From positions 992,001 to 1,056,000 of the forward strand of contig CH464491.1 of assembly GCA_000002445.1 (NCBI GenBank): a stretch of DNA of 64,000 nucleotides, in the 5' to 3' direction. Below, in pieces: positions 6,759-40,747 of the stretch. Position numbers and translations under genes: made by a program. The first letter of the stretch is position 1; each line of letters begins with the position of its first letter. This DNA is from Trypanosoma brucei. Its lineage: Eukaryota. Under the pieces are notes generated by a model. The model was not told the DNA's origin. It saw nothing but the letters and a program-made list of their open reading frames with translations, and did no database searches.

Positions 6759-9097
6759 CGTATGAAGGTTACTGCGTTTTATTTTAAAAGAAAGTTGTTA
6801 TTCGGCCCTTTTCGTTTTTACGCTCTTATGTCTTGTGTGCTTATGCTGTCGTTTGTTGTTGATTTTCTTTTTATTGCAATGAGCCTGCTGATATCAATTT
6901 TTGACATCATATTCGTGTTGCCAATAAAAATGAAGAGATGAGATGAAAGTAAGGAAGAGCACAGAGAGGCGACAAAACACTTCAGTTTGGATGAGTCAAG
7001 CGAAATTACTCGATGTTATTGAGAGAAATAGAAAGTAGAAAGGGAAAAGGACACGGAAGAGGTTCTTTAGTGTTGCTTTTGCTCTACAATTAGTTTCAAC
7101 CTATTTGTTTCACTCGTTTATCTATTTATTTGTGGTGAAGGGTTGAACAGTGATGACGAGAGGAATATATATATATATATACATATTTTCAAAAAAGGAA
7201 AGGAAAGGAGGTGTGATTTAAAAAAAAAAAAAGGAAAGCCGATCACAAAAAGGTGCAGTGTCGTTTCTTTCATGTTCCGTTTGTTTGTTTTTCGATGAAA
7301 ATTATAACGAAAAAAGAATAATAGTAATAGCGTTGTTTGTCTTTTACTTTTATTTCAACTTCGTTGGTTTGGTTTTGTTTTCGTTTCAGTGTTTTTTTTT
7401 TCTTCTGTGCGTGCGTATGCTCAGTTTTTGTTTTTTGTGCATGGGGGTAAAAGAGTGATCAAAGACACGTGAGTTTTTGTTTCCATTTTGTTTTGTTTGT
7501 TAAATAAAGAAAAAGAGGGAGAAAACCGGAATGTGGAGTATAACTTAAGTGCGGTCATATGTGTGTGCGTGTATGACTGTATTTAAATAAATAACAAAAT
7601 GAAAATGAAACAACAACAAGGCGCAAACATGTGAGTATTCTCCCGGAGACGAAATGAAATAAGGAAGATCCAAAACAATACAGAACTCGCTGGTAGCAAG
7701 AGGTGCAAGAAAAATAAACACACAAATGCTTACAAGGAGAGGGTCCAGTTTCGCTATATGTATTAGTTGTGTCAATGTTATATTGTGGTTTCGTGTTATT
7801 TTTATATATATTAATATATTTTCATGTATTTACTTTTATATATTTTTATTTATCCATATTTTCATACTTTACTTGTATTATATTATATTATCTTATATAT
7901 ACATTTATATATGCGTGTACGTTTGGATATATGTATACATGCTTTACTCGTTCTGTCTGTGTGTGTCTTTCTTTTTGTGTTTACTTTGGTTTCTTGCTGG
8001 TTCATGACTCTGCGGTCTTCACCACAGAAATGTGCCTGCGGTGGGGGGAAATTTATACATATTTTTGTTACTTTGATAAAAACAACAACAAACAACAGCA
8101 ACACAAAAGAAGAAAGGACAAAAGGAGTATATTTAAAAAAAAAGAAACCGGGGAAAGCAACCGCGCTGTATGTATGATTGGGCTAAAAGCAAGAAAAGAT
8201 AATGGTAGTTTGTATTATTTTAGCCCCTTTATTTTCTTCGACAGGTCGATTCGGTTTTGCGGCGAGTGAAGGCCGAAGGTTTTGGCATCCAGTTGATTGT
8301 TTATCTTTTTATCAGGCGTGCACTTTGCCGACACTGTCTGACGCTCATTTTTTTTTTGTTTTTTGTCTTCTTTTACTTGTGTATTTTCCCAACCTCGCAT
8401 TTGATTCGTATTGTTCTTCTGTATTTCACTTATGTGGCACGACTTGGAAAAATATGAAAAAAAAAGGAAACAAAAGGGGAATTGTGAGCCGCAGAGAAAA
8501 TTTACATGTTACTGTTGTTGACGTTGTTTGTTTGGCTCTTGGTGACTTTTTTTGTGTGTGTGTTTGTCACCTCTTTCATCACCGTGACGAGTCTCCCTTC
8601 TTTGATGTTTAAAGAGAAGAAAAGGGGAAGGGGAAAAAAATGAAAAAGGAAGAGAAAAAGTAACTTGAAGGAAAAGGGATGCTCTCACGGTTCTTTGCGT
8701 TCGTTTATTAGTTGTGTTGAGGTTTACTGGTGTTTGCTTTTTGTCATTCCCCACTCATTCCTTCCTTCTTTTGTTGTCTCGGCCATGTTTCTTTTTTTTA
8801 AAAAAAAAAAACTTCGTTGTGTGCATTTTTAACACTCGTTACCGTTACCGTCCCTAACATTTTGTTTACCGTTACCCATCACCAGAGCGGGGTTTTCACG
8901 AACCATAAATACAATAGCTCCTTCCCCACCATGTCAAAAAAAATGACGGGCAATAAGGAAAGAAAAATGAAAATACAGCGTCGCATCAGTTTACAGGAAT
9001 CGTAACTGGAAGCAAGGGAATTGAGTATTGTGGAAGAGAAATGGCTGTATTCATGAGACAAACACGTGGTCTCGTACGTGTATGATATGTAAGTGCA

Positions 9098-19626: not shown

Positions 19627-22062
19627 TTGATATCCATCGCGCCTACACATAGGTTTCGAGTGACCATGGACACCCTTACGTACGTGTGCAGGGAGTGCGA
19701 AGCCAGCGCGTTGCGCATTGAGGTGCCGTTAATTTCAGTTAAGGCAACCGCTTTTAACGATGACGTACCCGCGCTGATTTCATCCCACCGCCGGCTGCTC
19801 TGCATGAACATGAAGCAATCTAACCGCCTTCGTGTTCTCACACACCGGGGAAGTTACGCGGAGGTGGAAGTGGGCGCTACAGTACTCCGCAACCTCGTCT
19901 CCTCTGAGGGGTTACTGGAACACTGCTATTTTTTCGCAGCCGGTGGTAATGTGGTAGCGCGACTGGCCCCCATCAGGCAGGCGAACGGGGATGTAAAGAT
20001 CGAGAAACGTGAGGTGCGTCTGCCCGAAGAAGTATACGGTGTAACTGTGGGTTACGGAGATATCGTGTATGTACTAGGGAGGTCTTGTGCTTTTGAGGTG
20101 CATATGGAGTCATCAAAAACGTCACCAATTGGACTGGCACCCCGCACTTTTGTAAAACATTCGGTAATTGGATATCATCAACAGGCGAAATTACTGTTAG
20201 CGCCGGCAAAGGCGAACTGCCTCGACCTCGTATCAGCAACAGCCGGCACGAGCGTCTTACCGAAAGTCTGGGAACCGCACGCCAACTCGATGCCAACTGC
20301 CGCATTTTTCTTCCAGAGACGCAGTTTTTCGAATGAAAATTCGGATAACTTGTTCATTGTTACTGCGTCTCATGGCAACAGGGAACTCCGATTGTGGTCC
20401 TACAGCCAACGGACGAAGACATTTACTCTCAAACAGGACATATCCATCACTATGGAGGACGATGGAGTGGTGGATGGGGACGAAAATGCTTTTCTTATTA
20501 GCTGCACACCCACAGAAGAGTATATAACGCTTTGCTCAAAACAGCGTCCTCTTGCTGTGGTGCTGGAGCTCAACCGCAGTAGTTTCAAGGTCGATCGTGT
20601 TACTTCGTGGAGACTTAATGGCCCCGTACTGGGAAGTGTGGCAGCTGTTAGCAAGATGACAGAATCGGCGAGCAGCACATCTGTCGAGTACCAGGTGATT
20701 TTAACCGTCCGCACGGCGACCGGTTTTTATGGAGAAGTGCTGGACGTAGAAAAGCCTGCGGAAGCATCCAACACACCTTCACTGAGGACAAACTCCGCCT
20801 CCTCGTGGTTTCCGAAAAACGAGGCGGCACACATCGGTGGGACAGAGATTGCTCTGCCCACAGCACTGACATCGGTCTCTTCGTCCGTCTTGGGTGACAA
20901 AACGACAAACGCCGTGCCACAGGGAGTTGCATCTAACATTGTCCGTCAACAAGCCTCTCAGTTCTGTGAAACGCTGCGAAGCATTGATGAACGAGTTGTC
21001 AATTTGCAAAAGCATGCATCGGAAGCGATGCGCCTCCTTCAAGAGGCATGGGAGCGAGAAAAAGCACAGACAATCGGGCGCGAATTTGCCATTCGTAACA
21101 AAGGCAGGTTGGAGCAGCAACAACAAGTAGCAGGACAATCTACCGATAACCTCACCCCCAGGCAGCAGGAACTACTGGAGGAAATCCGTTCTATTGTGGA
21201 AAAGTCAGAGCAGCTGGCCGTAGATACTGCCACCGAGGTAGTGAAGGCACAACTTTCCCGGCGCCTGAAGGACGCCGTAGCGAAGGGTGCAAAGGAGGCA
21301 GATCAGGTTGAGTTGAGCTCCGGAACCCCCATTGTTCGTTCCACGGACAGCATGCGCCTGTTCAGCAACGGCGTGGACGCTGCCGTACGCACACTCGTTC
21401 GCGCAGTAAAAGGATACCACAAAACGATGAAAACTGTCGTGGATTCCTCATCAGCTGCGACAGCTAGTTGTGTTGCTAAAGCCAGGGAGTTCACGGCGTC
21501 CCTGAACCGTGAGAAGCAGTTACTTGCATCGGAATTGATGGCCACAATGGAGGTTGTGAGGCACGGCGGAGCACCGACCCAGCCGGTGGATCCAGACGCT
21601 CTTGTGGCGCGGGCAATCGCGCTAGCAGAAGCAAACGATTGGGTCACCTCCTTTACGACCGTGTTGGGGGCATCTGATATCACTGTCTTGTTGCACTTCC
21701 TCGAGAGTGAGGTGTGCGTGAATAACGTGACAGCTATGGTGAATCCGCAGTCGATTACCTTGCCTATATTTCTTAGCCTCTGTCTCCAGTTATCCTTTGA
21801 GCTGAATAACTTGCAGGGGCTCATTCCATCGCGTGTCAAGGCCCTTCACGCCTTCTTTGTTGAGTGGGATGATACACTGAAGGATATGAAGAGCAGGGCA
21901 GCAGATGGTAATAGCAAACACAAGCCGATGTTTGAGCTGACAAAACGCGAGTTGCGGAATGTATTGGAACAGTTGGAGATTGTCGACGATAAAGCAGTTG
22001 ACCGATGCAGTCGAAACAATCTCCGGCTGCTGAAGAAACTCATTCACTTCCTGGTGACATGA
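19627..22062 (+). CDS. Hypothetical coiled-coil protein (alternative start at Met 19666)
   Basis: 811-aa + ORF. The C-terminal half is predicted coiled-coil, with heptad-like charged/Leu patterning. Confidence 0.55.
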   Translation: MISIAPTHRFRVTMDTLTYVCRECEASALRIEVPLISVKATAFNDDVPALISSHRRLLCMNMKQSNRLRVLTHRGSYAEVEVGATVLRNLVSSEGLLEHCYFFAAGGNVVARLAPIRQANGDVKIEKREVRLPEEVYGVTVGYGDIVYVLGRSCAFEVHMESSKTSPIGLAPRTFVKHSVIGYHQQAKLLLAPAKANCLDLVSATAGTSVLPKVWEPHANSMPTAAFFFQRRSFSNENSDNLFIVTASHGNRELRLWSYSQRTKTFTLKQDISITMEDDGVVDGDENAFLISCTPTEEYITLCSKQRPLAVVLELNRSSFKVDRVTSWRLNGPVLGSVAAVSKMTESASSTSVEYQVILTVRTATGFYGEVLDVEKPAEASNTPSLRTNSASSWFPKNEAAHIGGTEIALPTALTSVSSSVLGDKTTNAVPQGVASNIVRQQASQFCETLRSIDERVVNLQKHASEAMRLLQEAWEREKAQTIGREFAIRNKGRLEQQQQVAGQSTDNLTPRQQELLEEIRSIVEKSEQLAVDTATEVVKAQLSRRLKDAVAKGAKEADQVELSSGTPIVRSTDSMRLFSNGVDAAVRTLVRAVKGYHKTMKTVVDSSSAATASCVAKAREFTASLNREKQLLASELMATMEVVRHGGAPTQPVDPDALVARAIALAEANDWVTSFTTVLGASDITVLLHFLESEVCVNNVTAMVNPQSITLPIFLSLCLQLSFELNNLQGLIPSRVKALHAFFVEWDDTLKDMKSRAADGNSKHKPMFELTKRELRNVLEQLEIVDDKAVDRCSRNNLRLLKKLIHFLVT

Positions 22063-22983: not shown

Positions 22984-25900
22984 ATGAGCGTAGAAGAAGT
23001 GTCATGTCTTTCGGAGGACTTCGCTAGCCGCACAACAACCAGCGTTCTCATCCTCTACGCTGACACGTACTTTGGTCGGAGGATGTTTCAGCAGTTTTAC
23101 GGCCGCAAGAGTAAGACGGGTACGTGCTACAGGATTAATGCGTGCATGTGGAGTGAGAGCAGCGTGGAAAACTTTATTGATTACTGTGACACGCTACCGT
23201 TCCAAATGGGTCACAGTTTCCGGTCCCGTCAGTCACTGCCAACCGTAATCGACCTCGGAACCCAGGCCGAAAAAGCCAATCTTGGTTCCACTATCGACGG
23301 TGGCGCCACACAGGGCCCAGATAATGCGGACGGGACGAGCCATCAGCTCAATGTCTTCTGGCGCCGAAATGGACCCAAGTTGCACCAGGCCGTGCTGGCA
23401 TCAGACCTGATAGTAGTTGAGTTGCGCAGTGCACAGGATGTATTTGACATTGTGCACCTTCTCACAACAAAGATTTTGCGAAAAACAAAGCGCCTTATTC
23501 TCGTCTCGTCACTACTAACGTGGTACGCCACGCCGCCCCTACAGAGGGAGTCGGTGGAGGAAGTGAACGGCGAAACAGACTCTGTTGAGAATGAAGAGGA
23601 GGGAGAACACCATGAGGAGGAACAGGAGGAGGTGCAGCAGCCCATGAAACCAGATGAAGTGGAGGCTTTGTTGGGACCTCTGGAGGTGGCCGAAGATGAT
23701 TATGAAAACTCTCCCTTGGAGGGGGAGGCAGAAGGTGAGTTGGAACTCCTAACAGAAGATCAATACAACCGTCGCATCCCGCATGCCAAGTATTTCAACT
23801 GGCGCGAGGCGGAACGAGTTGTGGCTTCAGCGAACAGCGATGATCGCCATTTGCAGACCTGCGTTGTGTTTGCGGGTCTCACATACGGTGAGGGGGAAGA
23901 TGTGATGGAGTCCTTCTTTCGCCAGGTGTGGAGCCGGGAGGAACATGGATTGCCCATATATGGTAGTGGCTCGCAGATTGTGCCATGTGTGCATATTCGC
24001 GACCTCGTGACGTTTGCGCAGCGGCTTTTGGAGGCGGCTGCACCGCCAACAAGCCGCTACGTGTTCGCTACAGATAACAGTAATGTTTCATGGCGGCGGA
24101 TGGTTCTCGCACTAAACCGGGCGTTCGGTGGGGAGAAAACATTCCATGTACCGCCTTCGGAGTACCTGCTTCACAAAAACGTAGAGCTCTTTACGATGAA
24201 CCTTCGTGTGGAGAATTCCACGATGAATGAAATGATGGACGAAAGTGATTGGGCGGCACGGGGCGGTTTCGTGGATTCCATTGATAAGGTTGCCCATGAG
24301 TTCATTGAGTCACATAACTTGCAACCGATACGCATCCTGATTCTCGGGCCACCTCTGTCCGGGAAAACTGCCCTGTCCGGGGCTGTGGCGAAGCGGCACT
24401 ATCATGTGCCTACTTTCACGATAGAGCAAGTGCGGGAAGAGTACAAGGAGCACATCGAGATCCTGAAATCTAGACTTGCAAAGTTCCGTCAGTGCCTACA
24501 TGAACGGGAAAAGACGCGTCGTGAAGAAGCGAAGAAGCGGGCATTCTTGCGACCGCGCAATAAGCCAGAGGTTAAGGAAGAAGAGGAAGATGACCAAAAT
24601 GCCATGGGTGAGACACAGCAGCAACCAACAGCGTCCCCCGACAGCGGCCGGCAGGGAAATATGGAAAGCACCAGGCTAGTGGATTGTTCAACTACCGTTG
24701 CTGAGGATGATGTCGATGGTAAGGCGGTTGACTTTTCGCTGAACGAGGAGGAAATGCAAAACGTGGAGGCACTCGTCGACGATTGGTACCAGGGCAACGA
24801 ACGTGCTATACAAATACGTGATACTATTGCGTCAATGGAGCGTGTACTCTCAATGCGGATAAGAGTACAGCCCCCAAGCTCAAATGACCCGTTGGGTTCC
24901 AGTAACCCAAAGAAGCGTAAAGAGGGAACGAAGCAGAAGCGTGTAGCAAAAGTTGTAAACAAGAAGCCAGTCGCTGAAGAAGAAGAACACAATCCTGTAC
25001 AACAGGAAAGTGCTCCATTTCAGGACAAGGCACTTGCATGCATGGTGCGGTGGCGGCTGTCCCGTCCGGATTGCCGTAACCAAGGATACGTGCTTGACGG
25101 CTTTCCAGAGACCGTGGAGCAGGCTCGCCTTGTCTTTGGCCAGACCCCACTGGAGCTTCCCGAAAACAATGAAGACACAGTAATTTCGTTGCCCTCCGCA
25201 CCAGCCGGTAGTGGAGGGTATGCAAGGACGGCGGTTGTGCGTCACTCGGCGTCACTCTCGGCGAATGCTCCACCCGAGAGCACGGAGTTGTGTGACGAAG
25301 ATCGGTTGCCTGATTTTGTCTTCGTCCTTACTGCTCCGGATAATTACCTCCTTGATCGTCTGACCGCTGTTTCCAAGATATCAGGCGAGACGGGAAGTAC
25401 TGAGGAAAAGTGTCTGAGGCGGTTCGAGGCAGCGATGGCAAACTACCAACAACAGTACACGAACGCAGAATACACCCTTCCAAACTTCTTCGAAACTGCC
25501 AGCACCGTCGCCAAAGTGCTTACGCCAGGAGGCCGCACCCCCACCGTGTTGGCGGTTGATGTGAGTGGTCAGCCCCTACTGCCTCCGCCACCACCGGAGT
25601 CCGATTTCGCCGTGCCCGAACCAGGTCAGCTGGAGAAACTTCTCTGCGCATACGTCGGACCCTCCCACACGTTGGGGCTTTCTCCAAAGCAACTCTTCGA
25701 TGAAGAAATACGAGCTCGTAATTTAGAAATGGAAGAAAGAAAGAAGGAGATGCGTGCCATCACCGAGCAGTACGAACGCGAGTTGCGTGAGTGCATGATG
25801 GAGAGCGAGCAGCGGTCCGTCGTAGAAGATGCTCGGCGCGCCATCGACCTCGCGGACCGGGAGGCCCTAGAAGAACGCAAAAGACCGCTGCGGATGTATC

Positions 25901-26037
25901 TTAACCATAACATCATACCGTTGCTGAGCAAGGGACTAGTAGAGGTGTGTAAAAGGCGACCCGTTGACCCTGTAGACTTCCTCGCCGAGTGGCTTATGCT
26001 CCACAACCCTCACGATGATTCGTGTTTTGAACTGTAA
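22984..26037 (+). CDS. AK7-like adenylate kinase domain protein with C-terminal DPY-30/RIIa-like dimerisation motif
   Basis: P-loop ILILGPPLSGKTALSGAVAKR and NMP-binding motif GYVLDGFPETVEQARLVF are present. The C-terminal ...LVEVCKRRPVDPVDFLAEWLMLHNP matches the DPY-30 motif. The N-terminal ~430 aa precede the kinase core, as in AK7. Confidence 0.75.
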   Translation: MSVEEVSCLSEDFASRTTTSVLILYADTYFGRRMFQQFYGRKSKTGTCYRINACMWSESSVENFIDYCDTLPFQMGHSFRSRQSLPTVIDLGTQAEKANLGSTIDGGATQGPDNADGTSHQLNVFWRRNGPKLHQAVLASDLIVVELRSAQDVFDIVHLLTTKILRKTKRLILVSSLLTWYATPPLQRESVEEVNGETDSVENEEEGEHHEEEQEEVQQPMKPDEVEALLGPLEVAEDDYENSPLEGEAEGELELLTEDQYNRRIPHAKYFNWREAERVVASANSDDRHLQTCVVFAGLTYGEGEDVMESFFRQVWSREEHGLPIYGSGSQIVPCVHIRDLVTFAQRLLEAAAPPTSRYVFATDNSNVSWRRMVLALNRAFGGEKTFHVPPSEYLLHKNVELFTMNLRVENSTMNEMMDESDWAARGGFVDSIDKVAHEFIESHNLQPIRILILGPPLSGKTALSGAVAKRHYHVPTFTIEQVREEYKEHIEILKSRLAKFRQCLHEREKTRREEAKKRAFLRPRNKPEVKEEEEDDQNAMGETQQQPTASPDSGRQGNMESTRLVDCSTTVAEDDVDGKAVDFSLNEEEMQNVEALVDDWYQGNERAIQIRDTIASMERVLSMRIRVQPPSSNDPLGSSNPKKRKEGTKQKRVAKVVNKKPVAEEEEHNPVQQESAPFQDKALACMVRWRLSRPDCRNQGYVLDGFPETVEQARLVFGQTPLELPENNEDTVISLPSAPAGSGGYARTAVVRHSASLSANAPPESTELCDEDRLPDFVFVLTAPDNYLLDRLTAVSKISGETGSTEEKCLRRFEAAMANYQQQYTNAEYTLPNFFETASTVAKVLTPGGRTPTVLAVDVSGQPLLPPPPPESDFAVPEPGQLEKLLCAYVGPSHTLGLSPKQLFDEEIRARNLEMEERKKEMRAITEQYERELRECMMESEQRSVVEDARRAIDLADREALEERKRPLRMYLNHNIIPLLSKGLVEVCKRRPVDPVDFLAEWLMLHNPHDDSCFEL

Positions 26038-26747: not shown

Positions 26748-29330
26748 TTGGGGGTGTGCCTGTGTGTTTTACCCCAAATGTTTGGTGGTTTGGATTCGTC
26801 GGGTGACGAAGGTGAAGGATTGGCTAATCAGGGTCCATCTGGAAATAGAAACACACGACAAGTAGCGAGCAGAGGTATGAGGTCGATGTTTGCAGAAGAT
26901 GATATGCAGTCAAGGCAAGGCGTTACATCCCTGCGTTACGAAGATAAGGGGACTGACAAAGCGGTAGCACGTTCGGTGATGGGTAGTGGAGGCGCCACTG
27001 GGCAACAGTCAAATGCTTCGTCGCCACTGCAAACAGCAGTACAGGCCGTGGTGGTCGCATACAAAGGAGAGGAGGTGATTGGGTCATGCGTTGTGGCCGC
27101 ATGTGTGCCTCGTACAAGCGCCACGGCTCCTCCCCTCATTGCAATTATTGACCGGGACAAGCGACCGCAGTGTCGGGTGCGCATGGACGAAAATCTGCAA
27201 CTCATTCAGAGTGAAGGGGAGCCGCAGTACGCCTCGCTGTTCGATCCAAGTTTTGGAGGTCATTGGTCACTGATGTTCAAGGGGCGCCGGGAGTGCACAG
27301 AGTTTGTTGCTTCAGTACTTACTGCCCTCAACTCTTCGCGTCTGCAAGACAGTGGAGTGACGCCTCCAATTGTTGAGTGGGGAAGCGGCGCGTCGCCATA
27401 CGAAGAGCTGGGCGCAGCCGCACGCACGGTAACGCGTGGAGACACGGTAACGATTTCCTTCACGTCTTGGCTGCTACAACGGGTGCCGGGAACGTCCTTT
27501 TTTTCGTTAGGGAAAGTGATTGAGGAGGTGCCACCAGAGGCACCGCGTGAGGTAAGTGTGGGCTCCGGTACAATGATGATTGGTGTAGAAAACGCCCTGA
27601 CTGGCATGAGGGAAGGTGGTTTCTCACGACTGGTGTTTGTGACGCCGCGGTTGACGAAAGTGAACCGCGGCTTGGGGAATCCGGAGGTTCAGCCGTCTGA
27701 TACGGTCGTTACACACATCACTTGCCACGAGATTCTGCGGGCCGTGGGAAGAAACAAAGCTTCAAGGCCCGCACACCAAGTGGGGACGGTAGAAGCAGAC
27801 AATGTTAACTCCGCTTTTGATAACACAACGGCGGCATTGGGAGCGCCAGCGGTAATAAGTGACCGTAGGGAGTGCCCACCAGGGTCGGTGGAAACTGGAG
27901 CCGCGCAAACAGGGTCGTCAGACGTGAATTCGCTCATGCAAGTCCTTCTGCTACAGACGCTACAACAGCAGCAGCAACAGAAGCAGAGCGTCAGTGCCCC
28001 AGTTGCCGAGGGAGGGCAGTTGAGCTCAATTGAGCGAAGCGTGGAGCGACTTCACCTTCAGATTGCAACCCTTTATGAGAAGGTTGATCGCCTTGGCATT
28101 GACGAGAAGATAGAGAAAAACAACGCAGCGATTGAGCGGATCGTCAAAAAAGTTGTAGGGAAGGTGCCGATGGGTGAGGTAGATTTGGAAGATGCGGTAA
28201 AAGACCGTGATGGGCTTCTTGCGACTATTGAAAGGCTGAAAGGACGGCTCGAAGAGGAGACGAGTAATTACCATCGGGCCCTGGAGGCAATGAGTCGGCA
28301 CAAGGATGAGGTGCTCCAGTTACAGAAGGACCTGCAGCTGCAACAGGAAACTCACGGAGCGCGCGTGCAGCAACTTGAAGAAGATAGGCGCCTGCGGCTC
28401 GTGGAGGCCCATGTTCAGCAGCAACAGGCCGTAGAACGTGTAGGGGAGGAAAAGTTCCGCGAAGGCTACGAAGCCGGCGTCCGAGCAACTGAGCAAAAGC
28501 ATAAGGAACAGCGGGCCCTAGACCCCGCCGCAACCGATGGCTGCACAACACAGGAGTGGAAGGATCGTCTATTTGCCAGTGAACAGCGTGCAGTGCAGCT
28601 GGAAACGGCGCTTCAGCAAGCTGAAGGACGTCACATAGCAGAGAGGCGCCAACTGCAGGAGCATGTCGATGCGCTTACAAGGATGACGACGATGCTGCAG
28701 GAACGGGCAGAGGCCAAAGCATCAGCTGTAGAAATATTGGATGGCCAGCAGACGGCTGAACAGCAAAGTGCTTTCCTCCGCCGAACGATGAATTCGGTCT
28801 ATGTGAACTTGGAGACCCAACTACGTGCCATGGGGAGCGATACGGTTTCCGTGCTAGATGTGTTGCACCTGCTGAGTTCTGTTACTGCCGCCGAGGTCAG
28901 CGCGTTCAGCGATGATGCTTCCAAGGAGGCACTGCTACAGTGGAATCCAGCAGTGAGTGCTAACTCTGATCCGGTGGAACTGCACTCGACACACGTTGCA
29001 AACTACTTGCAAGACGCGAGCGAAATGCGAGCTGGAGGCACCGAGGGCACGTCGGACACACTCGGGTCTGTGGGTTATGCACATATCTCTGGCATTGACC
29101 AGCCGCCAGTTGTGCATGACGAGACAGGCCAGCTTGGTGTGCCACCGCCACCTGAGGGCGAGTCTCTATTTGCTTTCAACTCTGATGTCGATGGGTTCCC
29201 CGAGCCGCCCAACCTCCTGATCGATGCTGAGGATGGCAACGATGCCGCAGGCGGTGGAATTGATAACGTGAGGAACCTCGGGGAAATCTTTTTGGAAGGG
29301 GCACCAAGAGTAACGGACGGAGATGATTGA
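26748..29330 (+). CDS. FKBP-like domain protein with long coiled-coil region
   Basis: The segment GDTVTISFTSWLL...GKVIEEVPPE...VGSGTMMIGVENALTGMREGGFSRLVFVTP resembles an FKBP PPIase fold. It is followed by ~350 aa of heptad-patterned coiled coil and an acidic tail. Confidence 0.5.
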   Translation: MGVCLCVLPQMFGGLDSSGDEGEGLANQGPSGNRNTRQVASRGMRSMFAEDDMQSRQGVTSLRYEDKGTDKAVARSVMGSGGATGQQSNASSPLQTAVQAVVVAYKGEEVIGSCVVAACVPRTSATAPPLIAIIDRDKRPQCRVRMDENLQLIQSEGEPQYASLFDPSFGGHWSLMFKGRRECTEFVASVLTALNSSRLQDSGVTPPIVEWGSGASPYEELGAAARTVTRGDTVTISFTSWLLQRVPGTSFFSLGKVIEEVPPEAPREVSVGSGTMMIGVENALTGMREGGFSRLVFVTPRLTKVNRGLGNPEVQPSDTVVTHITCHEILRAVGRNKASRPAHQVGTVEADNVNSAFDNTTAALGAPAVISDRRECPPGSVETGAAQTGSSDVNSLMQVLLLQTLQQQQQQKQSVSAPVAEGGQLSSIERSVERLHLQIATLYEKVDRLGIDEKIEKNNAAIERIVKKVVGKVPMGEVDLEDAVKDRDGLLATIERLKGRLEEETSNYHRALEAMSRHKDEVLQLQKDLQLQQETHGARVQQLEEDRRLRLVEAHVQQQQAVERVGEEKFREGYEAGVRATEQKHKEQRALDPAATDGCTTQEWKDRLFASEQRAVQLETALQQAEGRHIAERRQLQEHVDALTRMTTMLQERAEAKASAVEILDGQQTAEQQSAFLRRTMNSVYVNLETQLRAMGSDTVSVLDVLHLLSSVTAAEVSAFSDDASKEALLQWNPAVSANSDPVELHSTHVANYLQDASEMRAGGTEGTSDTLGSVGYAHISGIDQPPVVHDETGQLGVPPPPEGESLFAFNSDVDGFPEPPNLLIDAEDGNDAAGGGIDNVRNLGEIFLEGAPRVTDGDD

Positions 29331-33294: not shown

Positions 33295-34290
33295 ATGAGC
33301 GTGCCTCGTTTGCGCGTCCCCGACCAGAACGACGAACAGTCATCCGCAAAACATTTTCCTGCAGATGACTGTCCAGCGAAGTCGTCAAGTGTAAGGACTA
33401 CGGCTGCTAACGGACAAAGTACAGCTCAATCAATCAATGTGAGTGCGCGCTTTTTGCCTTATGATGATATTTGCGGAATCGGACCAACACTTCATAGCAG
33501 CCCGACGGAGGAGAACGAGATGAACTGGTCTCACGAGCACGGCGCCAATAGGTTCCTATCGGATAGGGAAACGCATGGAACGCGCCGCCTTTGCTTCACA
33601 GGCGGCAGCAGTGGCGGTGGTACGCTCAGCGAGTCCCAAGAGACGACGGCGTCGGAGTTTGTGATGGAACTACGGGACGCCCTTAAGCAAACGATGGCGG
33701 AAGGCAACTCACCGACGGACTTGGAGGTTGACGGGAGTGCGGGCCCTGCCATTTGGATGCGCTTGTTTGAGAGGTGGCCCCTGGAGTTGGCCGCCTCGGG
33801 GTATGCGGAGTGGTGGTTGCGACACCCCAAGTGCGGTGAGGACGCTTCCCAGCTGTTCCAAATGTTCATCGATGGAATTGCGAGAGAGGAGTGCCGGCGT
33901 AACCCCCTTGACGGGGAAAAGGATGGAGAGGAACTGCGTGACGGTGTTCTTCAAGGTGCGCTTGTTATGCTTCAAGCTCTCTACGCTGACCCACCGCAGT
34001 CGCTTAGGGCGGCCTTCGGGACACCACTGTACCACCAACAGTTGTTCTTCCGTACCTGTCGCCTTGGTGCTCTCGGGGATGGACGGGAGTTGGCCCTCTG
34101 TCTTTCTCTTGCCGCTGCCATTGCGCAACGCATCGCAGGGAACAAACTGGCGATGCGCCACGACTTGAGCCGCTTCATTGGGAGAGTGCGCCGCAACTGG
34201 CAGGCTCTGCGGGAGAAGTGGTCAGACGAGGAAAAACTCGTCTTAGAGGTTGGAAAGGTGGAGGCTCTTCTTGCATTTGCCCTCGACTGA
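33295..34290 (+). CDS. Hypothetical protein
   Basis: 331-aa + strand ORF with no recognised domain. Confidence 0.45.
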   Translation: MSVPRLRVPDQNDEQSSAKHFPADDCPAKSSSVRTTAANGQSTAQSINVSARFLPYDDICGIGPTLHSSPTEENEMNWSHEHGANRFLSDRETHGTRRLCFTGGSSGGGTLSESQETTASEFVMELRDALKQTMAEGNSPTDLEVDGSAGPAIWMRLFERWPLELAASGYAEWWLRHPKCGEDASQLFQMFIDGIAREECRRNPLDGEKDGEELRDGVLQGALVMLQALYADPPQSLRAAFGTPLYHQQLFFRTCRLGALGDGRELALCLSLAAAIAQRIAGNKLAMRHDLSRFIGRVRRNWQALREKWSDEEKLVLEVGKVEALLAFALD

Positions 34291-35420: not shown

Positions 35421-38400
35421 ACTACCCAGCTGCTAAGTCAATGCATGTGAAGTGGGGTATCGTTTAAGGTGTTTTCATACCACATCCCTCCCTTGAGTCT
35501 GTAAAGCTTATGTTCATTTTTTTTTTTAACTCGTTTCACTGCACAATTTTCCTGCGGCACAAGGCACGCCGCCTTTTCTCTTCTTTTTTTTTTCGTTTTG
35601 TCATAGTGCCGTCTCTCTGCAGTGGGAATGAAACATTACGAAGCCCAAAAAAGGTGGGAGCTGGTGACGGGCCTTCACGTCAAAGGCAAAGTGTGTTATT
35701 TCACTGAAGGTATAGAAAATCAAGGAATCGGGGAAAAGCAACCGCTTTTTATGGGAATTGGTTGGCGGGGTCCATTCGAGGTCACCTCAACTGCGGGGCA
35801 ATGCCGGGCGGCTGAAAGAGGACCGGTACATTAAATGGCGCTAGGCTTCGCGTCATGTTGGTCGAGTCTAGGGTCTCGCTATCGAATTCCAACACACCAC
35901 CACAACCCCACTAGGAACCAAACGCAGAAATGATGATTATTATTATTATTAAAAGTTCTTGACAAACATTTGGTCGAGAAAAAAAAAACGAACAACATTT
36001 AAACGTGTAATGCTGTCGAAGTCCCGAGTACGGTCACTACAGGTGAAAGGCGAGTTGCCTGTGATTCACATTGCACTAGCGGTCTCCACACACACACGAA
36101 CACGCAGAAAAAAAAATAGAACGCTGCGCCGCCATGGGCAGAAGCCGGTGTTGTTGTAAGTTTTCTGTAAGCATGCATAATGATAGGGCGTGTGGACATT
36201 TGTATATTCCTTTTTTTCCCCCACGCTTTTGCTGCACAGATAGCGCTGTGGTGGCACAGCTCATTCAAATGGCTTTCAGGAAGGTTAGGTTGGCCACGGT
36301 ACCGTTTCCCCCCTCCAATTTCGCCACCTGTGACATTTAAGCGCGCGGATGGGGGGCTGTCAGTGCTCTTACCGTAAGTAACTGCGGGTCCTCCTCCCCT
36401 CCCTGGCCGTGTGCTCATCTTGGGTGCCTCATCAGCCCTGCTTTTCCGACAATGCGGCACCTGAGTGCATGGCGCTGGTGCATCATCCAACCATCCTTTT
36501 CCACTTCGTTCCTTTCCGCTTGGGGGCTTTGCAATGGCCGCGTTAGCTCCAAGATGAAGTTTCCTGGCGTGCTGCCATAGTCCCGTCTGTGCTCAGCAGG
36601 GCTTTCCACATTAATTCGACATCATATGTTTTTACCGAAAGGCCACTCAGGGGCGTTGCCGTTGCTTCCTCATGTTGTTCTCTTTGCTTCTTTCCTTCTA
36701 CTGTCTCCTCCGCCCTCCCTAAGACCTATTGAGCTGGTCGGTGAATAACCACGCCGCGGCAGCACTCGATCACTGCGGACTCGGTGCTATTTAAAGTGAC
36801 TGATTTTGTAAACTTCCTGCCACACCCCCCTCGATGCGCCCTGAGCCTACCCTTTTCACCCGTGGGGTCGAGCACACTGTTATCCCGTGTCAGGAATATG
36901 GCAACCGTGCTCCATTCGCGGCTCTTCTTCGCAATCGCCACTCTGTAGGTTTCCCTTCAGTCTCTCCCGTGTTGGCGACACCTCATTTATCAGGAGGAGT
37001 TTCCAATCCGCCTGAACTGTTAGTCGTGCTATGAGTCACCGTTTTCAATTTTTCCGCAAGCCCCTTTTCGGGACTCCGGTGCTCATGTCAAATCACTTCC
37101 CTTTCTTTACATAACACGCGGCCGACGGGGCTGTGGCGTCATCGTGTGTCGCTCCGCTTTGCGCCCGGTGTCAAGGAAATGCAGCCGCAGCTGAGGATTC
37201 CGGACGACACAGGAATGCCTTGCAACCCTTCCCTGAGGTGCCATGGGCTTGTGGTCGTATGTTGTTTTGAGAGATCGCCTGCTTTCGCTCGGCCAATTTT
37301 CCAGCTTCATTCCGCACCACTGATACGACCGCCTTGCAAATGGTCATCTTGGTGGTGTTAAACAGCTTCCGGACTTCGTTCTGCCTTTTCCCGCTCACCG
37401 AACCTCGGGAGCGCCCGTGCGCCACATTGAATTACACAAGCCCGAGTACTGACGGGCGGATGCGGCACTGTCCGTGACAGTCATGTTTACAAGGAGGTTT
37501 TGGGCGCCTTTTTGCCCTGTGCCAGCACTGGTGCCCGCACGCGCTTTTCGGCCACATCGTTTGCTGCTGAGTTTCATCCTGACGATAAAAAATGTTTCGG
37601 GGCATATGACCGTGCCTCGGATTCTGGCAGTGCTCCTATTCCGGGGCGGCCGCATTGTGGTTAGTTCGTTGGGAATTATGACGGGCCGGCTGCTCACCAC
37701 TTCTTCCCCTCGACCGCCTCACCGTGTGCACCGGTTTCGGCGCTTATTAGGGGCGATCGCTCTTCGGTATCGCCCAAAATGTTTCGTGGTGCGGGCACGG
37801 AATGATTCAGAGATAGTTTTTCCTGCCCTGCTGAACTTCCCCTTCTTCGGTGCAGGCTTATAGTTACCGCGGTTGCCTCTGCGCGTGCTTGGCCCTAATC
37901 CGGCTTCGAATGTAGCGTGTGCCTCTTTGTGCTTCTGCTTTATGTCTCCCACCAAAATATCAACTTTTATATGTTAGGTGTGTTTTTGTGCAGTTGTTTC
38001 TTCCACTGCAATCTCATCTGCTATTGCACTGTCTTTCCAAACAACGTGGTGGGAGAAATAAGCCGCATAGAAATCACCGCATTCTTTTTACTGATTGTGA
38101 AAATCACCCTTCCATACGCGGCTCGGGATTTCATCCTCCACGCGACTGTCTTTCATTGTTTCCAGTACCGTATTTAGCACCTTTTCAATTGGCACTGCTT
38201 CTGCACGATGGTTGCATGCCCATATTCAGGTGTCCCTTTAATTCTGTATTTTTCCGTGTTGCCGAAGATTATCATTTCTGCAGTGGACTAACTGCCTAAA
38301 CTCACCAGTTCATCTGTTGAAACTTTTCAGTCCTTGTTGTATATCCCTATTTTTTGCGGCGTATGAGCCCTCCTCCATCCGTCTGTTGCGTTTGCTTTTA

Positions 38401-40218
38401 TACCCACCCATGGAGGGCAATTTTGTGCACACTCTGGGACCAGCGTCCAAGGAGCTTTAAGTGTGGAGTACACCTTGATTTTTGGTGTCGGAGCACCATC
38501 CCTCCACTGAATTCAGCCATTCAAGTATTGGATTGTTTCGCGGACATCACCGGCTTACTATGCTTGAAAAGCGCCCTCTTTTAGCGTTTGACATGGGGCG
38601 GTATTCCGTCGTCCTCTTGTTTGCCGGTTTTCAAACAAATATCAGTCGTGCTTTTTTGAGCATGTCTTGTTTGTTCGAGTCCGAGGAAACCACAGCAATG
38701 ATTTGAACTGATTCAGCTTGCGCGCTTTCCGTCTTCCTCCCTTTCAGGTAGAGACATGAGAATCGCCTAAGAGCGACGCCGTAGTTTATCTTTTAGTGGA
38801 CGATTCCGTAGTGGAAGGCTGTAAACGCTTTCTTCCGTGGAGCACCGTTCAGCTAACACTACGGCATTGAGCCTCTCTAAACTTGTTCTTTCTGATTTTG
38901 TCGTTTGGTGAGCATGCTTTTCAATCCTTCTTTCAATGGGTGCAGTGTGGCCCGCGGGCTTTTGGGTCTTTGCATCGTTGGCCATTTTTCCTCGTCAACA
39001 TGAGGCCTTGTGGGTTCCAGATGCCTAATCCAAGTGCTGTGTGCCCCGTCTTTTCCTCCAGCGCTTGCGTATAGCATCTTAGCGGCTGTCGCGCAAACAC
39101 TCTTTCTCCGCTGCGGCGCACCTCCCAGTTTGTTTTCGTCCGAATCCGTCGCTTTGAGGATCGGATTCCTGGTAAATAAACTATCGTTGGGTCCTGGGGT
39201 CTTATTCAGTTCCGTGCTCAACGTTTCCATCGCTCTAAGAAATAGGATGCAGCCTAACGCCGACACCCGAAGAAACCCACGCGTCAATCCCGCGTTCGTC
39301 GAACTCTATAGTCGTTGTCATGATCTTTCTTGTTCAGTGAGGCGGGGAGTTGCTTATCCACCATGTTGGATGTGATATCTACTTTGAACCACCCCATCAC
39401 TCGAGCAACGTAGCTGCGACCCCACTCAATTAAGCCCCATCAAAGAGTTTATAAACACTGCTGCAATTAAGGAACTGTTTTCCTTCGATCCGATAGCACT
39501 CAGAAATTCTAAAACAGAATTAGCGCTGCATATTCATCGTTGGAAACCTGACTATTGTAGCTGAAGCGGCTCTCAGAGGCAGTTTTTTTTTCACTCTACC
39601 AAGTGCCACTCTTCGGATGACACCGACCGCGGTGCCGTCTGGCGCCAGCGGTTGGGATGATTCAACGCCTTTAGCTGATTTGTTCTGCTTAAAGAATGGT
39701 ACTATGGTCCCTCTTGGCTGCTCAGGGAATTTGTTCAACCTTTGGAAGCGGCTGTTAAACTAAGGTAAGAACCACCTTTAACGCTCCCCGGTATGAATTC
39801 CGTTGCATCCAGTCGCCGTCCACACTATATAATTTCCCCGTTACTTTCGATTCGCCACGAAGACGCCATGAATACACAACTGCGCGACTTTAAGGGCATT
39901 AGTGGAACGATTCGTATACTTGTCTGCCAAAGCCCGCAGCCGCCGCCCTTTCGTCGGTGGGTGACTGGTCATTACACTGGAATGGGGGCGGATGGCGGTC
40001 ACAACGCAAATACTGATTTTAGCAGCGCTCAGGTGTTCTTCAGGGTGGATTGTTTCGAGGCGTCCTGCCTCCCTGTCCCTAGAGCTGTTTCGGTTAGCGG
40101 ACTCTTTCTTATTTCGGTGAAGATAGTTCTCTTGGTCGACTTCCTATACTGGTTCATTCTGCTTTCAGGGGTTATCAGTTCTGCTGCTCTATCGAAGGTC
40201 GTTCGGCAGCGGTTGCCG

Positions 40219-40230: not shown

Positions 40231-40735
40231 CCTGGCGATGCCGGCCACCTCAACGTGGTGCCAGGGTCCAGTACCCCGTATCATCGGGGGAAGCCAAGAG
40301 CCAGCAGCGTTCCTTTCATGGGGAACACTGCTGTGCTCCGGCTACGGCATCATACAGCACAGGGATCAACAGCGTCTTGCTGGGACACTGTTTTTCATTT
40401 GTCGGTCCCTGGGCACGTGCCAGCGTGCCATCAGCAGTATCATCCGCGCTAAGATGCTGCTGTCCGGTGATGTGGAACTCCAAAAAAAAGAATTGCCAAT
40501 TGGCATCTTTTGGAGAGTCCGGAGTGGGGGGCTTCTCGCTCCATCTGCTGTATTCCGTTCATGTGCGGAAATACAACAAAAAATTATAGAGGGTGTGTCA
40601 GGATGAATGAAAAAGGGAGACTCTGCCACAGTCGCCAGACCGATAGCATCTCAGGGCTCTACGGTGATGGCTGATGGCCGCGCCAGTGGGGGGAAACTCT
40701 CATGAAGGCACGAAGAAAATTTCAAAAAAAAAAAA
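40231..40735 (+). mobile_element. RIME-type non-autonomous non-LTR retroposon (ingi/RIME family), complete copy with poly(A) tail
   Basis: The 5' end CCTGGCGATGCCGGCCACCTCAACGTGGTGCCAGGGTCCAGTACCCCGTATCATCGGGGGAAGCCAAGAGCCAGCAGC matches the conserved ~79-nt signature of trypanosomatid ingi/RIME/L1Tc elements, recalled from memory. Total length is ~505 bp, ending in A12 at 40724-40735. It is flanked by perfect 12-bp direct repeats. Confidence 0.78.
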
Positions 40736-40747
40736 TTAGAGTTTCCC
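40736..40747 (+). repeat. Right 12-bp target-site duplication (TTAGAGTTTCCC)
   Basis: Direct repeat of 40219-40230 abutting the poly(A). Confidence 0.8.

What the first reader, a model, noticed from the sequence alone, without database searches (positions are those of the whole stretch)
22984..26037. AK7-type architecture: adenylate kinase core split by a long acidic insert and capped by a DPY-30 motif
The kinase P-loop (ILILGPPLSGKT, ~aa 445) and the NMP-binding GYVLDGFPETVEQA motif (~aa 700) are separated by ~250 residues, much more than in canonical AKs. The insert is rich in E/K/R and includes a KKRKEGTKQKRVAKVVNKK basic patch. The C-terminus ends in a textbook DPY-30/RIIa-like docking motif (DPVDFLAEWLMLHNP), the module that tethers proteins to axonemal radial-spoke or AKAP-like scaffolds. 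Together with the long N-terminal domain this parallels AK7, which is linked to ciliary function, so I predict a flagellar ATP-homeostasis enzyme. The NMP-binding insert is unusual.
Basis: partly seen in the sequence, partly recalled or inferred. Interest (0 to 1): 0.5.

Follow-up and report, generated by a model that had tools for sequence, protein, structure and literature searches.

The report
Trypanosome AK7, a radial-spoke adenylate kinase
This gene is the trypanosome version of AK7, a known flagellar radial-spoke protein; it is already in the databases, but it has a greatly enlarged insert in its kinase domain and has changed several residues that such kinases normally use for catalysis.

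Summary
ORF 22984..26037 (+) encodes 1017 aa with a P-loop (aa 451-462), a GYVLDGFPET motif (aa 701-714), a KKRKEG...NKK patch (aa 643-661) and a Dpy-30 domain (Pfam E=1.4e-14). The protein is collinear over its whole length with mammalian AK7 (E=1.7e-52). A predicted structure matches the AK7 chains of mouse and bovine radial spoke 3 (RS3) best (E~1e-24). With the insert removed in silico, Pfam ADK passes its threshold across both halves. The window is Trypanosoma brucei-group DNA, and the identical protein is already annotated ('Adenylate kinase' / 'Dpy-30 motif containing protein'). The insert is not simply acidic: it is a 43-aa helix, an acidic linker, a helical hairpin and a basic linker. 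It enlarges an insertion site present in most AK7s and is shared across Discoba (Bodo, Papus, Diplonema, Pharyngomonas). Its helices are as conserved as the kinase core. Verdict: an ordinary orthologue of a known family with lineage-specific variations. No localisation or enzyme data were found.

The parts
22984..26037 (+). Complete CDS of the AK7 orthologue (1017 aa plus stop)
   Evidence: ORF list. 100% identical to an annotated T. equiperdum protein. E=1.7e-52 to mammalian AK7.
23032..24318 (+). N-terminal extended-SDR / NAD-epimerase-like Rossmann domain (aa 17-445). Its Gly-rich dinucleotide motif looks degenerate (YADTYFG instead of GxxGxxG, by manual reading).
   Evidence: Pfam Epimerase scores 23.9 bits (cut-off 20.9) once the acidic loop is removed. 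Foldseek hits to NAD-dependent epimerases, e.g. 5u4q. aa 256-445 aligns with AK7 residues 173-398.
23539..23748 (+). Acidic disordered loop inside the N-domain (aa 186-255; D+E 0.40, net charge -26)
   Evidence: Composition. Mostly pLDDT <50, apart from a short helix at aa 223-230. Variable among orthologues, 0.42-0.56 column identity.
24319..25641 (+). Adenylate-kinase-fold domain (aa 446-886), interrupted by the insert
   Evidence: Pfam ADK scores 33.4-34.4 bits (cut-off 26.8) over model positions 1-136/151 on insert-deleted constructs. Foldseek hits to AKs 4pzl, 2bbw and 2bwj.
24346..24369 (+). Walker A / P-loop GPPLSGKT (aa 455-462)
   Evidence: G455, P457, G460 and K461 are invariant in 18 kinetoplastid orthologues.
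24421..24549 (+). Insert part 1: a 43-residue helix (aa 480-522) that continues the first NMP-binding-domain helix
   Evidence: Model helix H480-522, pLDDT ~85-91. 0.78 column identity in Trypanosoma with no gaps. Homologous in Bodo, Papus and Diplonema.
24550..24744 (+). Insert part 2: variable, acidic, disordered linker (aa 523-587)
   Evidence: pLDDT <50 for aa 526-580. Column identity 0.37-0.48. Net negative charge by 20-aa windows.
24745..24849 (+). Insert part 3: conserved helical hairpin (aa 588-622; '...IASMERVLSMRIR')
   Evidence: Model helices H588-604 and H606-622, pLDDT 77-89. 0.80 column identity in Trypanosoma with no gaps. The '(R/K)VLxhR' block is shared with other Discoba.
24850..24993 (+). 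Insert part 4: disordered basic linker (aa 623-670), including the NPKKRKEGTKQKRVAKVVNKK patch (aa 641-661; nt 24904-24966)
   Evidence: net charge +8 in one 20-aa window. pLDDT <50 for aa 631-670. 'NPKKRKE' is conserved in Trypanosoma and 'NPK(K/D)(K/R)K' in Bodo, Papus and Diplonema. Patch column identity 0.75.
25084..25125 (+). NMP-site motif GYVLDGFPETVEQA (aa 701-714). E709 occupies the position of the catalytic Arg (E. coli R88 / AK1 R97).
   Evidence: K or R at this position in 3/22 trypanosomatid-like sequences, against 16/17 other long-insert and 61/92 short-insert AK7s.
25144..25302 (+). Second, smaller disordered loop after DGFP (aa 721-773)
   Evidence: pLDDT <50 for aa 735-765. 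Variable. Short acidic loops occur at the same place in other AK7s.
25345..25458 (+). LID-equivalent region (aa 788-825). R792 is kept (= AK1 R128). The family's 'THN-EE' His is absent and the family's 'F-x-R-R-L' reads F814-E-A-A-M.
   Evidence: MAFFT, hhalign at prob 99.9 and phmmer against bovine AK7 all give the same register.
25684..25884 (+). Long C-terminal helix leading into the docking domain (aa 901-967)
   Evidence: Model helix H901-991, pLDDT ~75-93. Aligns with AK7 residues 602-690.
25885..26007 (+). Dpy-30 dimerisation/docking domain (aa 968-1008)
   Evidence: Pfam PF05186 E=1.4e-14, model positions 1-41/42. PDB hits to DPY30, NME5 and AK7 C-termini. 0.88 column identity in Trypanosoma.

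Best explanation
This is the Trypanosoma brucei-group orthologue of adenylate kinase 7 (AK7). It most likely sits in the head of axonemal radial spoke 3 (RS3).

Shown here: it has the full AK7 domain order. That is an SDR-like N-domain, one adenylate-kinase fold, a long helix and a C-terminal Dpy-30 domain.

Inferred from mammalian structures: the Dpy-30 domain pairs with the Dpy-30 domain of a partner protein. The pair then clamps onto an amphipathic helix of the RS3 scaffold (CFAP91 in mammals), fixing the protein once or twice per 96-nm repeat next to the dyneins.

The kinase domain carries an enlarged version of the insertion that most AK7s have inside the NMP-binding sub-domain. Here it is a long helix, an acidic linker, a helical hairpin and a basic linker. 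The helices are conserved as strongly as the kinase core. I therefore infer that they form a lineage-specific protein-protein contact surface on the spoke head.

Whether the domain still interconverts 2 ADP <-> ATP + AMP is open. The P-loop, the Mg-site Asp and one LID Arg are kept. Three phosphate-contacting positions that other AK7s keep are substituted in all or most trypanosomatids. I rate a mainly structural role, with reduced or no catalysis, as somewhat more likely than a fully active enzyme.
For: Orthology:
- phmmer against the PDB gives AK7 at E=1.7e-52 and 2.1e-46, in collinear pieces covering aa 256-1010.
- Foldseek ranks the AK7 chains of mouse RS3 (9d2f) and bovine sperm (9fqr) first, E~1e-24 to 1e-22.
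- Pfam finds Dpy-30, and ADK and Epimerase above threshold once the loops are removed.
- Orthologues exist throughout kinetoplastids, and 182 representatives match at E<1e-30.

RS3 role, from papers:
- Two AK7 copies sit in the mammalian RS3 head. They dock through DPY30-domain dimers (with EFCAB5 or AK9) onto CFAP91 (PMC11779644).
- AK7-/- mice lose the RS3 head and neck, and AK7 is reported conserved in species with three full spokes (bioRxiv 10.1101/2025.05.19.654877).
- Tetrahymena Ak7A and Ak7B depend on CFAP91 (PMC12399478).

Insert:
- The spacing distribution is bimodal, and the long form is found across Discoba.
- The blocks are homologous across these taxa.
- Model confidence and secondary structure support folded helices.
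- Helix conservation is 0.78-0.80, against 0.80-0.89 for the kinase core.

Catalytic doubt:
- Residue counts.
- The alignment register is confirmed by hhalign and phmmer.
Against: - No trypanosome localisation, knock-down or enzyme data were found.
- No near-identical chain exists in the PDB copy searched, so the protein has not been placed in any deposited trypanosome axoneme structure.
- The Chlamydomonas AK7-like protein FAP75 is assigned to the C2 central-pair microtubule, not a spoke (PMC12680740), so location is not fixed across eukaryotes.
- On the catalytic doubt: R812/R813 lie one helical turn before the lost Arg pair and could substitute. An ungapped manual alignment anchored on 'NEE' would put R813 on AK1 R149.
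- Glu after DGFP also occurs in 13 of the 92 short-insert AK7 representatives that could be aligned (a motif scan counted 9).
- AK7s in general lack the E. coli R36 and R123 equivalents, yet human AK7 is reported active (Panayiotou et al. 2011, from my memory, not checked here).
- The structure model is only moderately confident (mean pLDDT 61, 18-sequence alignment).
Confidence: 0.8

Rival explanations
1. It is a fully active axonemal adenylate kinase. It regenerates ATP from ADP beside the dyneins, and the insert is a tolerated or regulatory loop.
For: - The P-loop GxPxxGK is invariant in 18 orthologues.
- The Asp of DGFP is kept in 19/22 and R792 (AK1 R128) in 22/22.
- Q713 (E. coli Q92 equivalent) is kept in 14/22.
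- The kinase core is conserved at 0.80-0.89 column identity.
- R484 sits at the exact E. coli R36 distance in T. brucei, and R812/R813 are near the lost Arg pair.
- RS3-dependent AK activity was measured in Tetrahymena axonemes.
Against: - E709 puts a negative charge where canonical AKs have the AMP alpha-phosphate Arg and most AK7s have Lys or Arg.
- The family's LID His and Arg pair are absent in 22/22 trypanosomatid-like sequences, yet present in their nearest free-living relatives.
- Some trypanosomatids have even lost the Mg-site Asp (Phytomonas has V, P0016 has H) or the P-loop Thr/Ser (P0016 has K). This points to relaxed catalytic constraint in the clade.
- R484 is not conserved outside T. 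brucei and T. congolense.
Confidence: 0.4
2. It is a central-pair (C2) protein like Chlamydomonas FAP75, rather than a radial-spoke protein.
For: FAP75 has the same NADP-binding + ADK + DPY30 layout. Proteomics assigns it to C2 (PMC12680740). Tetrahymena AK7/AK9 cross-link to central-pair projection proteins.
Against: - Chlamydomonas lacks a full-length RS3 (it has only the short stump RS3S), so its AK7-like protein cannot sit in an RS3 head.
- The Tetrahymena central-pair assignment was re-interpreted as RS3.
- A cryo-EM preprint on the T. brucei central apparatus contains no mention of FAP75, AK7, DPY30 or any kinase.
Confidence: 0.12
3. It is a non-flagellar, nuclear or chromatin-linked protein. 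The KKRKE...KQKR patch would act as a bipartite nuclear localisation signal, and the Dpy-30 domain would bind a COMPASS-like complex.
For: The basic patch resembles a classical NLS and is conserved. Dpy-30 domains also occur in histone-methyltransferase complexes; the PDB hits include DPY30 itself.
Against: - The whole protein, not just the Dpy-30 end, is collinear with axonemal AK7.
- The best Dpy-30-region hits include the axonemal proteins AK7 and NME5.
- The patch lies in a disordered linker inside a kinase insert.
- The named relatives are flagellate lineages such as kinetoplastids, diplonemids and Pharyngomonas.
Confidence: 0.03

Closest known systems
Mammalian adenylate kinase 7 (AK7), RS3-head subunit (PDB 9fqr bovine sperm; 9d2f mouse respiratory cilia)
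   Same: - Same domain order: SDR-like N-domain, one AK fold, a long helix and a C-terminal DPY30 domain.
- Collinear sequence match at E=1.7e-52, and the best structural match.
- The P-loop is GPPxxGK(S/T) in both.
- Both lack the E. coli R36 and R123 equivalents.
- Both carry an insertion at the same point of the NMP-binding sub-domain.
- Both have an Arg immediately before the conserved Phe of the post-LID helix ('DRF' against 'RRF').
   Different: - The protein is ~300 residues longer. Distance from the P-loop Lys to the Asp of the DGFP motif is 244 residues, against about 95-100 in the metazoan-like forms.
- It has extra conserved helices and a basic patch in the insert.
- It has an extra acidic loop in the N-domain.
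- Glu replaces Lys after DGFP.
- There is no 'TH' in the LID, and 'FEAAM' replaces 'FLRAL'.
- Location and partners are untested in trypanosomes.
AK7 orthologues of other Discoba (Bodo saltans A0A0S4JBN3, Papus ankaliazontas, Diplonema japonicum, Pharyngomonas kirbyi)
   Same: They share the long-insert form of AK7 (P-loop Lys to DGFP Asp distance of 202-244 residues) with homologous helix, acidic linker, helix and basic patch blocks.
   Different: They keep Lys after DGFP, the LID 'HN' and the 'F-Q-R-R-L' Arg pair. Trypanosomatids have replaced all three.
Chlamydomonas FAP75
   Same: An AK7-like layout of NADP-binding domain, ADK domain and non-canonical DPY30 (PMC12680740).
   Different: It is assigned to the C2 central-pair microtubule, in an organism without a full RS3. 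Similarity to human AK7 is low (21.7% identity, 1e-05 in that paper). It was not compared directly here.
Canonical short adenylate kinases (E. coli Adk, human AK1)
   Same: The P-loop, the 'DCRN-G(F/Y)(L/V)LDGFP' block, Gln four residues after the Arg position, and the 'DR(I/L)' Arg.
   Different: - A 170-residue insert in the NMP-binding domain.
- Glu in place of R88/R97.
- No R123/R132, R156/R138 or R167/R149 equivalents in the aligned register.
- Embedded in a 1017-aa multidomain protein.
- The intact protein is below the Pfam ADK cut-off.

Membership tests
AK7 (adenylate kinase 7) orthologous family | Full-length, collinear similarity to bona fide AK7, not just to a generic AK domain | tested here: met
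   phmmer against the PDB gives AK7 at E=1.7e-52, in ordered pieces: query 256-480 with AK7 173-398, 670-727 with 447-504, 774-838 with 517-577, and 887-1010 with 602-722. Foldseek's top four hits are AK7 chains.
AK7 (adenylate kinase 7) orthologous family | N-terminal NAD(P)-binding-like (extended SDR) domain preceding the kinase | tested here: met
   Pfam Epimerase scores 23.9 bits against a cut-off of 20.9 after loop removal. Foldseek hits NAD-dependent epimerases and dehydratases.
AK7 (adenylate kinase 7) orthologous family | A single adenylate-kinase fold with a P-loop and a DGFP motif | tested here: met
   Pfam ADK scores 33.4-34.4 bits against 26.8 over both halves on insert-deleted constructs. 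The intact protein scores only 23 bits.
AK7 (adenylate kinase 7) orthologous family | C-terminal DPY30 dimerisation/docking domain | tested here: met
   PF05186 scores 53.9 bits against 22, E=1.4e-14, over the full model.
AK7 (adenylate kinase 7) orthologous family | The family-typical active-site signature: Lys/Arg after DGFP, a LID His ('THN-EE') and an 'F-x-R-R-L' Arg pair. This is typical of the family, not strictly defining. | tested here: not met
   The sequence has E709, no LID His, and F814-E-A-A-M. Counts in trypanosomatid-like sequences against the other representatives: 3/22 vs 77/109, 0/22 vs 69/109, and 0/22 vs 101/109. The register is confirmed. This lowers the claim 'active kinase', not the claim 'AK7 orthologue'.
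AK7 (adenylate kinase 7) orthologous family | Location in the RS3 head, docked on CFAP91 through a DPY30 heterodimer | not testable with these tools
   Known for mouse and bovine. No trypanosome data were found, and no trypanosome chain is in the PDB copy.
Catalytically competent adenylate kinase (EC 2.7.4.3) | Walker A Lys and the Mg-site Asp of the DGFP motif | tested here: met
   K461 is invariant. D705 is present, and the Asp is kept in 19/22 trypanosomatid-like sequences.
Catalytically competent adenylate kinase (EC 2.7.4.3) | NMP-site arginines (E. coli R36, R88) | tested here: not met
   The R88 position is E709. The R36 position is R484 in T. brucei and T. congolense only, and is L/I/V/A/E elsewhere.
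Catalytically competent adenylate kinase (EC 2.7.4.3) | LID / phosphate-clamp arginines (E. coli R119, R123, R156, R167) | tested here: inconclusive
   The R119 equivalent, R792, is kept in 22/22. The R123, R156 and R167 equivalents are absent in the aligned register. However, R812/R813 lie one turn upstream, and mammalian AK7 is also divergent here.
Catalytically competent adenylate kinase (EC 2.7.4.3) | Measured phosphotransfer activity | not testable with these tools
   This requires recombinant protein and an enzyme assay.
Dpy-30 / RIIa-type dimerisation-docking domains | A helix-loop-helix docking module matching PF05186 | tested here: met
   (Dpy-30 at 53.9 bits; RIIa weak at 15 bits). 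Model helices run up to residue 991 and over 996-1007.
Functional extended short-chain dehydrogenase/epimerase | A Gly-rich dinucleotide-binding motif (TGxxGxxG) after strand 1 | tested here: not met
   Direct reading of aa 21-34, VLILYADTYFGRRM: only the last Gly (G31, invariant) is present, with Tyr and Thr at the other two positions. This is a manual alignment, not a profile alignment.

The most novel reading that the evidence does not exclude
Trypanosomatid AK7 has become a pseudo-kinase. After the split from bodonids it lost the Lys/Arg after DGFP, the LID His and the Arg pair. It is retained because its kinase fold, together with the enlarged and conserved helical insert, builds a lineage-specific part of the RS3 head. 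The P-loop would at most act as a nucleotide-binding or sensing site. Such a part could contribute to the firmly connected spoke heads described for trypanosomes, or to contact with the central pair.
Probability: 0.3. Interest if true: 0.45.

Novelty: new member of a known kind. Interest (0 to 1): 0.25.

Why it matters
AK7 is a human disease gene for primary ciliary dyskinesia and male infertility. In mice it is required to build the radial spoke 3 head.

T. brucei is an established, genetically tractable model for flagellar proteins. Its orthologue could therefore be used to separate AK7's structural role from its enzymatic role.

The trypanosomatid protein looks like a natural experiment. 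The docking domain, fold and insert helices are conserved, while several catalytic positions have drifted. If the protein proves inactive yet essential for motility, that would argue AK7's main job is architectural.

Beyond that, this is a routine orthologue that public databases already annotate as an adenylate kinase / Dpy-30 protein.

Tried and rejected
1. Literature searches for trypanosome-specific data on this protein used these term combinations: AK7 with Trypanosoma and radial spoke; RS3 with adenylate kinase and DPY30; 'Dpy-30 motif containing protein'; AK7 with TrypTag; TbRSP63; and CFAP91 with T. brucei. Nothing specific turned up.
   - The Science 2025 trypanosome doublet paper (PMC12165780) is not held.
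   - The T. brucei central-apparatus preprint does not mention FAP75, AK7, DPY30 or kinases.
2. A search for a citable statement of human AK7 enzyme activity failed. That point rests on my memory of Panayiotou et al. 2011.
3. My first regular expression for the Dpy-30 motif found almost nothing. It was replaced, and the new one found the motif in 110 of 167 sequences.
4. I first read the MAFFT result as a clear loss of the AK1 R149 equivalent. I then noticed that an ungapped alignment anchored on 'NEE' would keep it. hhalign and phmmer support the MAFFT register. I keep the conclusion at 'uncertain' because R812/R813 lie one helical turn away.
5. Gene neighbourhood as functional evidence was rejected. 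The neighbours are unrelated housekeeping genes in one polycistronic unit.
6. tRNA and Rfam scans of the window found nothing.
7. The nuclear/NLS reading of the basic patch was considered and rated unlikely (see rivals).
I could not superpose the model on AK7 or on AK-Ap5A structures to settle where the arginines or the insert point.


Full report
**What is there**

All four quoted motifs are present:
- ILILGPPLSGKT at aa 451-462.
- GYVLDGFPETVEQA at aa 701-714.
- KKRKEGTKQKRVAKVVNKK at aa 643-661.
- DPVDFLAEWLMLHNP at aa 995-1009.

All ORFs of 200 aa or more in the window, apart from two shadow ORFs, lie on the + strand. The neighbours are unrelated housekeeping genes: EMP70, RPC5, an FKBP-like protein, ACBP, an M1 aminopeptidase, RPS4 and nucleoside transporters. 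This is the pattern of a kinetoplastid polycistronic unit, so gene neighbourhood says nothing about function.

The protein is 100% identical to a Trypanosoma equiperdum protein. NCBI calls it 'Dpy-30 motif containing protein, putative' and UniRef calls it 'Adenylate kinase'. It is encoded in assembly GCA_001457755.2 with the same neighbours. Orthologues at 50-65% identity exist in all Trypanosoma species sampled. Orthologues at ~32-41% exist in Phytomonas, Leptomonas and unnamed trypanosomatid-like assemblies.

**Is it AK7?**

Yes, as far as sequence and fold can tell.
- A phmmer search of all PDB chains puts mammalian adenylate kinase 7 first (9fqr_Xc E=1.7e-52; 9d2f_D E=2.1e-46).
- The alignment is in ordered, collinear pieces: query 256-480 with AK7 173-398, 670-727 with 447-504, 774-838 with 517-577, and 887-1010 with 602-722.
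- An AlphaFold2 model built on 18 kinetoplastid orthologues has mean pLDDT 61.2 and pTM 0.53. The folded parts are at 70-93.
- The model's best Foldseek matches are the AK7 chains of the mouse RS3 structure and of the bovine sperm 96-nm repeat (E 3.5e-24 to 2.5e-22).
- NAD-dependent epimerases (N-domain) and adenylate kinases follow in the ranking.
- Pfam gives a clear Dpy-30 hit (53.9 bits, E=1.4e-14).

On the intact protein the ADK model hits only aa 681-734, at 23 bits against a cut-off of 26.8. The P-loop half appears only as weak AAA_18.

With aa 501-673 deleted, ADK scores 33.4 bits over model positions 1-108. With the second loop also deleted it scores 34.4 bits over positions 1-136 of 151. 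The ADK domain does span both halves. In the same call the N-domain passes the Epimerase cut-off (23.9 against 20.9 bits) once its acidic loop is removed.

**The insert**

It is mixed-charge: D+E 0.21, K+R 0.19, net charge -5. The strongly acidic stretch is a different loop, aa 186-255, in the N-domain.

The model divides the kinase insert into four parts:
- A 43-residue helix (aa 480-522, pLDDT ~85-91) that continues the first helix of the NMP-binding sub-domain.
- A disordered acidic linker (aa 526-580).
- A helical hairpin (aa 588-604 and 606-622, pLDDT 77-89).
- A disordered basic linker (aa 631-670) that carries the KKRKE patch.

Among ten Trypanosoma orthologues the two helical parts have column identities of 0.78 and 0.80 with no gaps. 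That equals the kinase core (0.80-0.89) and approaches the Dpy-30 domain (0.88). The linkers score 0.33-0.56. The helices are therefore under constraint and are not filler.

**How unusual is the insert?**

An exhaustive phmmer search found 1337 cluster representatives at E<=1e-3 and 182 at E<1e-30. I measured the distance from the P-loop Lys to the Asp of DGFP in 124 of the sequences held:
- 85 AK7-family representatives: 47-160 residues.
- 18 further representatives: 200-272 residues.
- The 21 trypanosomatid-like sequences: 222-262 residues.

The distribution is bimodal. The named long-insert members outside trypanosomatids are Bodo saltans, Papus ankaliazontas, Diplonema japonicum and the heterolobosean Pharyngomonas kirbyi. 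Their inserts align block for block with the T. brucei one. The shared blocks are a long helix, an acidic linker, a helix ending '(R/K)VLxhR', and an 'NPK(K/D)(K/R)K' patch. The short metazoan-like forms show a miniature helix, acidic run and helix at the same site.

So the insert is unusual compared with canonical AKs. Within AK7 it is an old, Discoba-wide expansion of an insertion site that most of the family shares.

**Active site**

The groups are 22 trypanosomatid-like sequences, 17 other long-insert sequences and 92 short-insert sequences.

| Position | Trypanosomatid-like | Other long-insert | Short-insert |
|---|---|---|---|
| P-loop Lys | kept | kept | kept |
| D93 | kept 19/22 (Phytomonas V; P0016 H) | D 14/17 | D 86/92 |
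| R128 (T. brucei R792) | kept 22/22 | R 17/17 | R 85/92 |
| R97 (E. coli R88) as K or R | 3/22 (T. brucei has E709) | 16/17 | 61/92 |
| LID His of 'THN-EE' | 0/22 | 13/17 | 56/92 |
| R149 (E. coli R167) as R or K | 0/22 | 16/17 | 85/92 |

At the R149 position the family reads 'F-x-R-R-L', whereas T. brucei reads F814-E-A-A-M.

The register around F814 matters, so I checked it three ways. MAFFT, hhalign profile-profile alignment at probability 99.9 and phmmer against bovine AK7 ('rrfeaamany' with 'DRFLRALSNY') all agree.

Several caveats apply:
- R812/R813 lie one helical turn upstream and could reach the same site.
- A manual ungapped alignment anchored on 'NEE' would put R813 on R149.
- Glu after DGFP also occurs in 13 of the 92 short-insert representatives that could be aligned (a motif scan counted 9).
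- AK7s in general lack the E. coli R36 and R123 equivalents.
- Mammalian AK7 also has only one Arg of the pair.

Bodo, Papus and Diplonema keep all three features. The changes therefore arose on the trypanosomatid stem. I conclude that catalytic competence is doubtful but not disproved.

**How it most likely works**

From the literature:
- In mammals two AK7 copies sit in the RS3 head.
- Each DPY30 domain dimerises with the DPY30 domain of EFCAB5 or AK9, and the dimer docks on CFAP91 (PMC11779644).
- AK7-/- mice lose the RS3 head and neck and about ten RS3 proteins.
- AK7 is reported to be conserved in organisms with three full spokes (bioRxiv 10.1101/2025.05.19.654877).
- Tetrahymena Ak7A and Ak7B depend on CFAP91 (PMC12399478).
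- The same paper treats Trypanosoma as having all three radial spokes and states that all its RS heads are firmly connected.

By orthology I infer that the trypanosome protein docks through its Dpy-30 domain in the RS3 head. There it would act at least as a structural subunit, with the conserved insert helices providing lineage-specific contacts. ATP regeneration (2 ADP <-> ATP + AMP) is possible but uncertain.

Steps shown here: domain architecture, orthology, insert anatomy and conservation, and residue substitutions. Steps inferred: location, docking partner, role of the insert, and activity.

**Rivals**

- A fully active enzyme: confidence ~0.4. This overlaps with the main model on location.
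- A central-pair location like Chlamydomonas FAP75 (PMC12680740): ~0.12. This is weakened because Chlamydomonas lacks a full RS3. A T. brucei central-apparatus preprint also mentions no such protein.
- A nuclear role through the NLS-like patch and Dpy-30: ~0.03.

**Novelty and verdict**

The gene is already annotated and belongs to a well-known family. I found no paper on the trypanosome orthologue, and no near-identical chain in the PDB copy.

I file it as a new member of a known kind. Two lineage-specific variations are worth a line in an annotation: the Discoba-type long NMP-domain insert, and the trypanosomatid-specific drift of catalytic positions. Interest is low to moderate (0.25).

Noticed in passing
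window 23539-23748 (aa 186-255 of the same protein): A second, strongly acidic, mostly disordered loop (D+E 0.40, net charge -26) splits the N-terminal SDR-like domain. This loop, not the kinase insert, is the really acidic segment. With the basic patch at aa 641-661, the protein carries two oppositely charged disordered regions.
   Followed up: partly
window 49968-50789 and 51038-51859: Two tandem copies of a 273-aa ribosomal protein S4e gene on the + strand. Pfam was run on the first copy only; the second is inferred from its identical ORF length.
   Followed up: partly
window 52152-53459, 55131-56438, 58102-59424: Three tandem ORFs of 435-440 aa. The first matches Pfam Nucleoside_tran (E=1.9e-26), so this looks like a nucleoside-transporter gene array.
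   Followed up: partly
window 6001-8000; 35421-39792; 40607-44994: ORF-poor stretches with lower GC (0.36 at 6-8 kb; 0.40 at 42-44 kb) and negative GC skew at 36-40 kb. No tRNA or Rfam family was found. They are presumably long intergenic or UTR regions.
   Followed up: partly
window 25867-25869 (L962): In the 723-aa AK7 chain 9d2f_D, residue 673 by my count is the second Leu of 'RELLEVQS'. It aligns with T. brucei L962, which is invariant in 18 kinetoplastid orthologues. Human AK7 L673P is reported to cause male infertility (cited in PMC12399478). I did not verify that human numbering equals that chain's numbering.
   Followed up: partly
window 19627-22062 and 33295-34290: Two sizeable + strand ORFs (811 aa and 331 aa) with no Pfam match at E<=1e-3. 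The 811-aa ORF is the immediate upstream neighbour of the AK7 gene.
   Followed up: no
window 26748-29330: The downstream neighbour (860 aa) has a single weak FKBP_C domain (E=4.9e-6) inside a long, Gln/Glu-rich, apparently coiled-coil protein.
   Followed up: no
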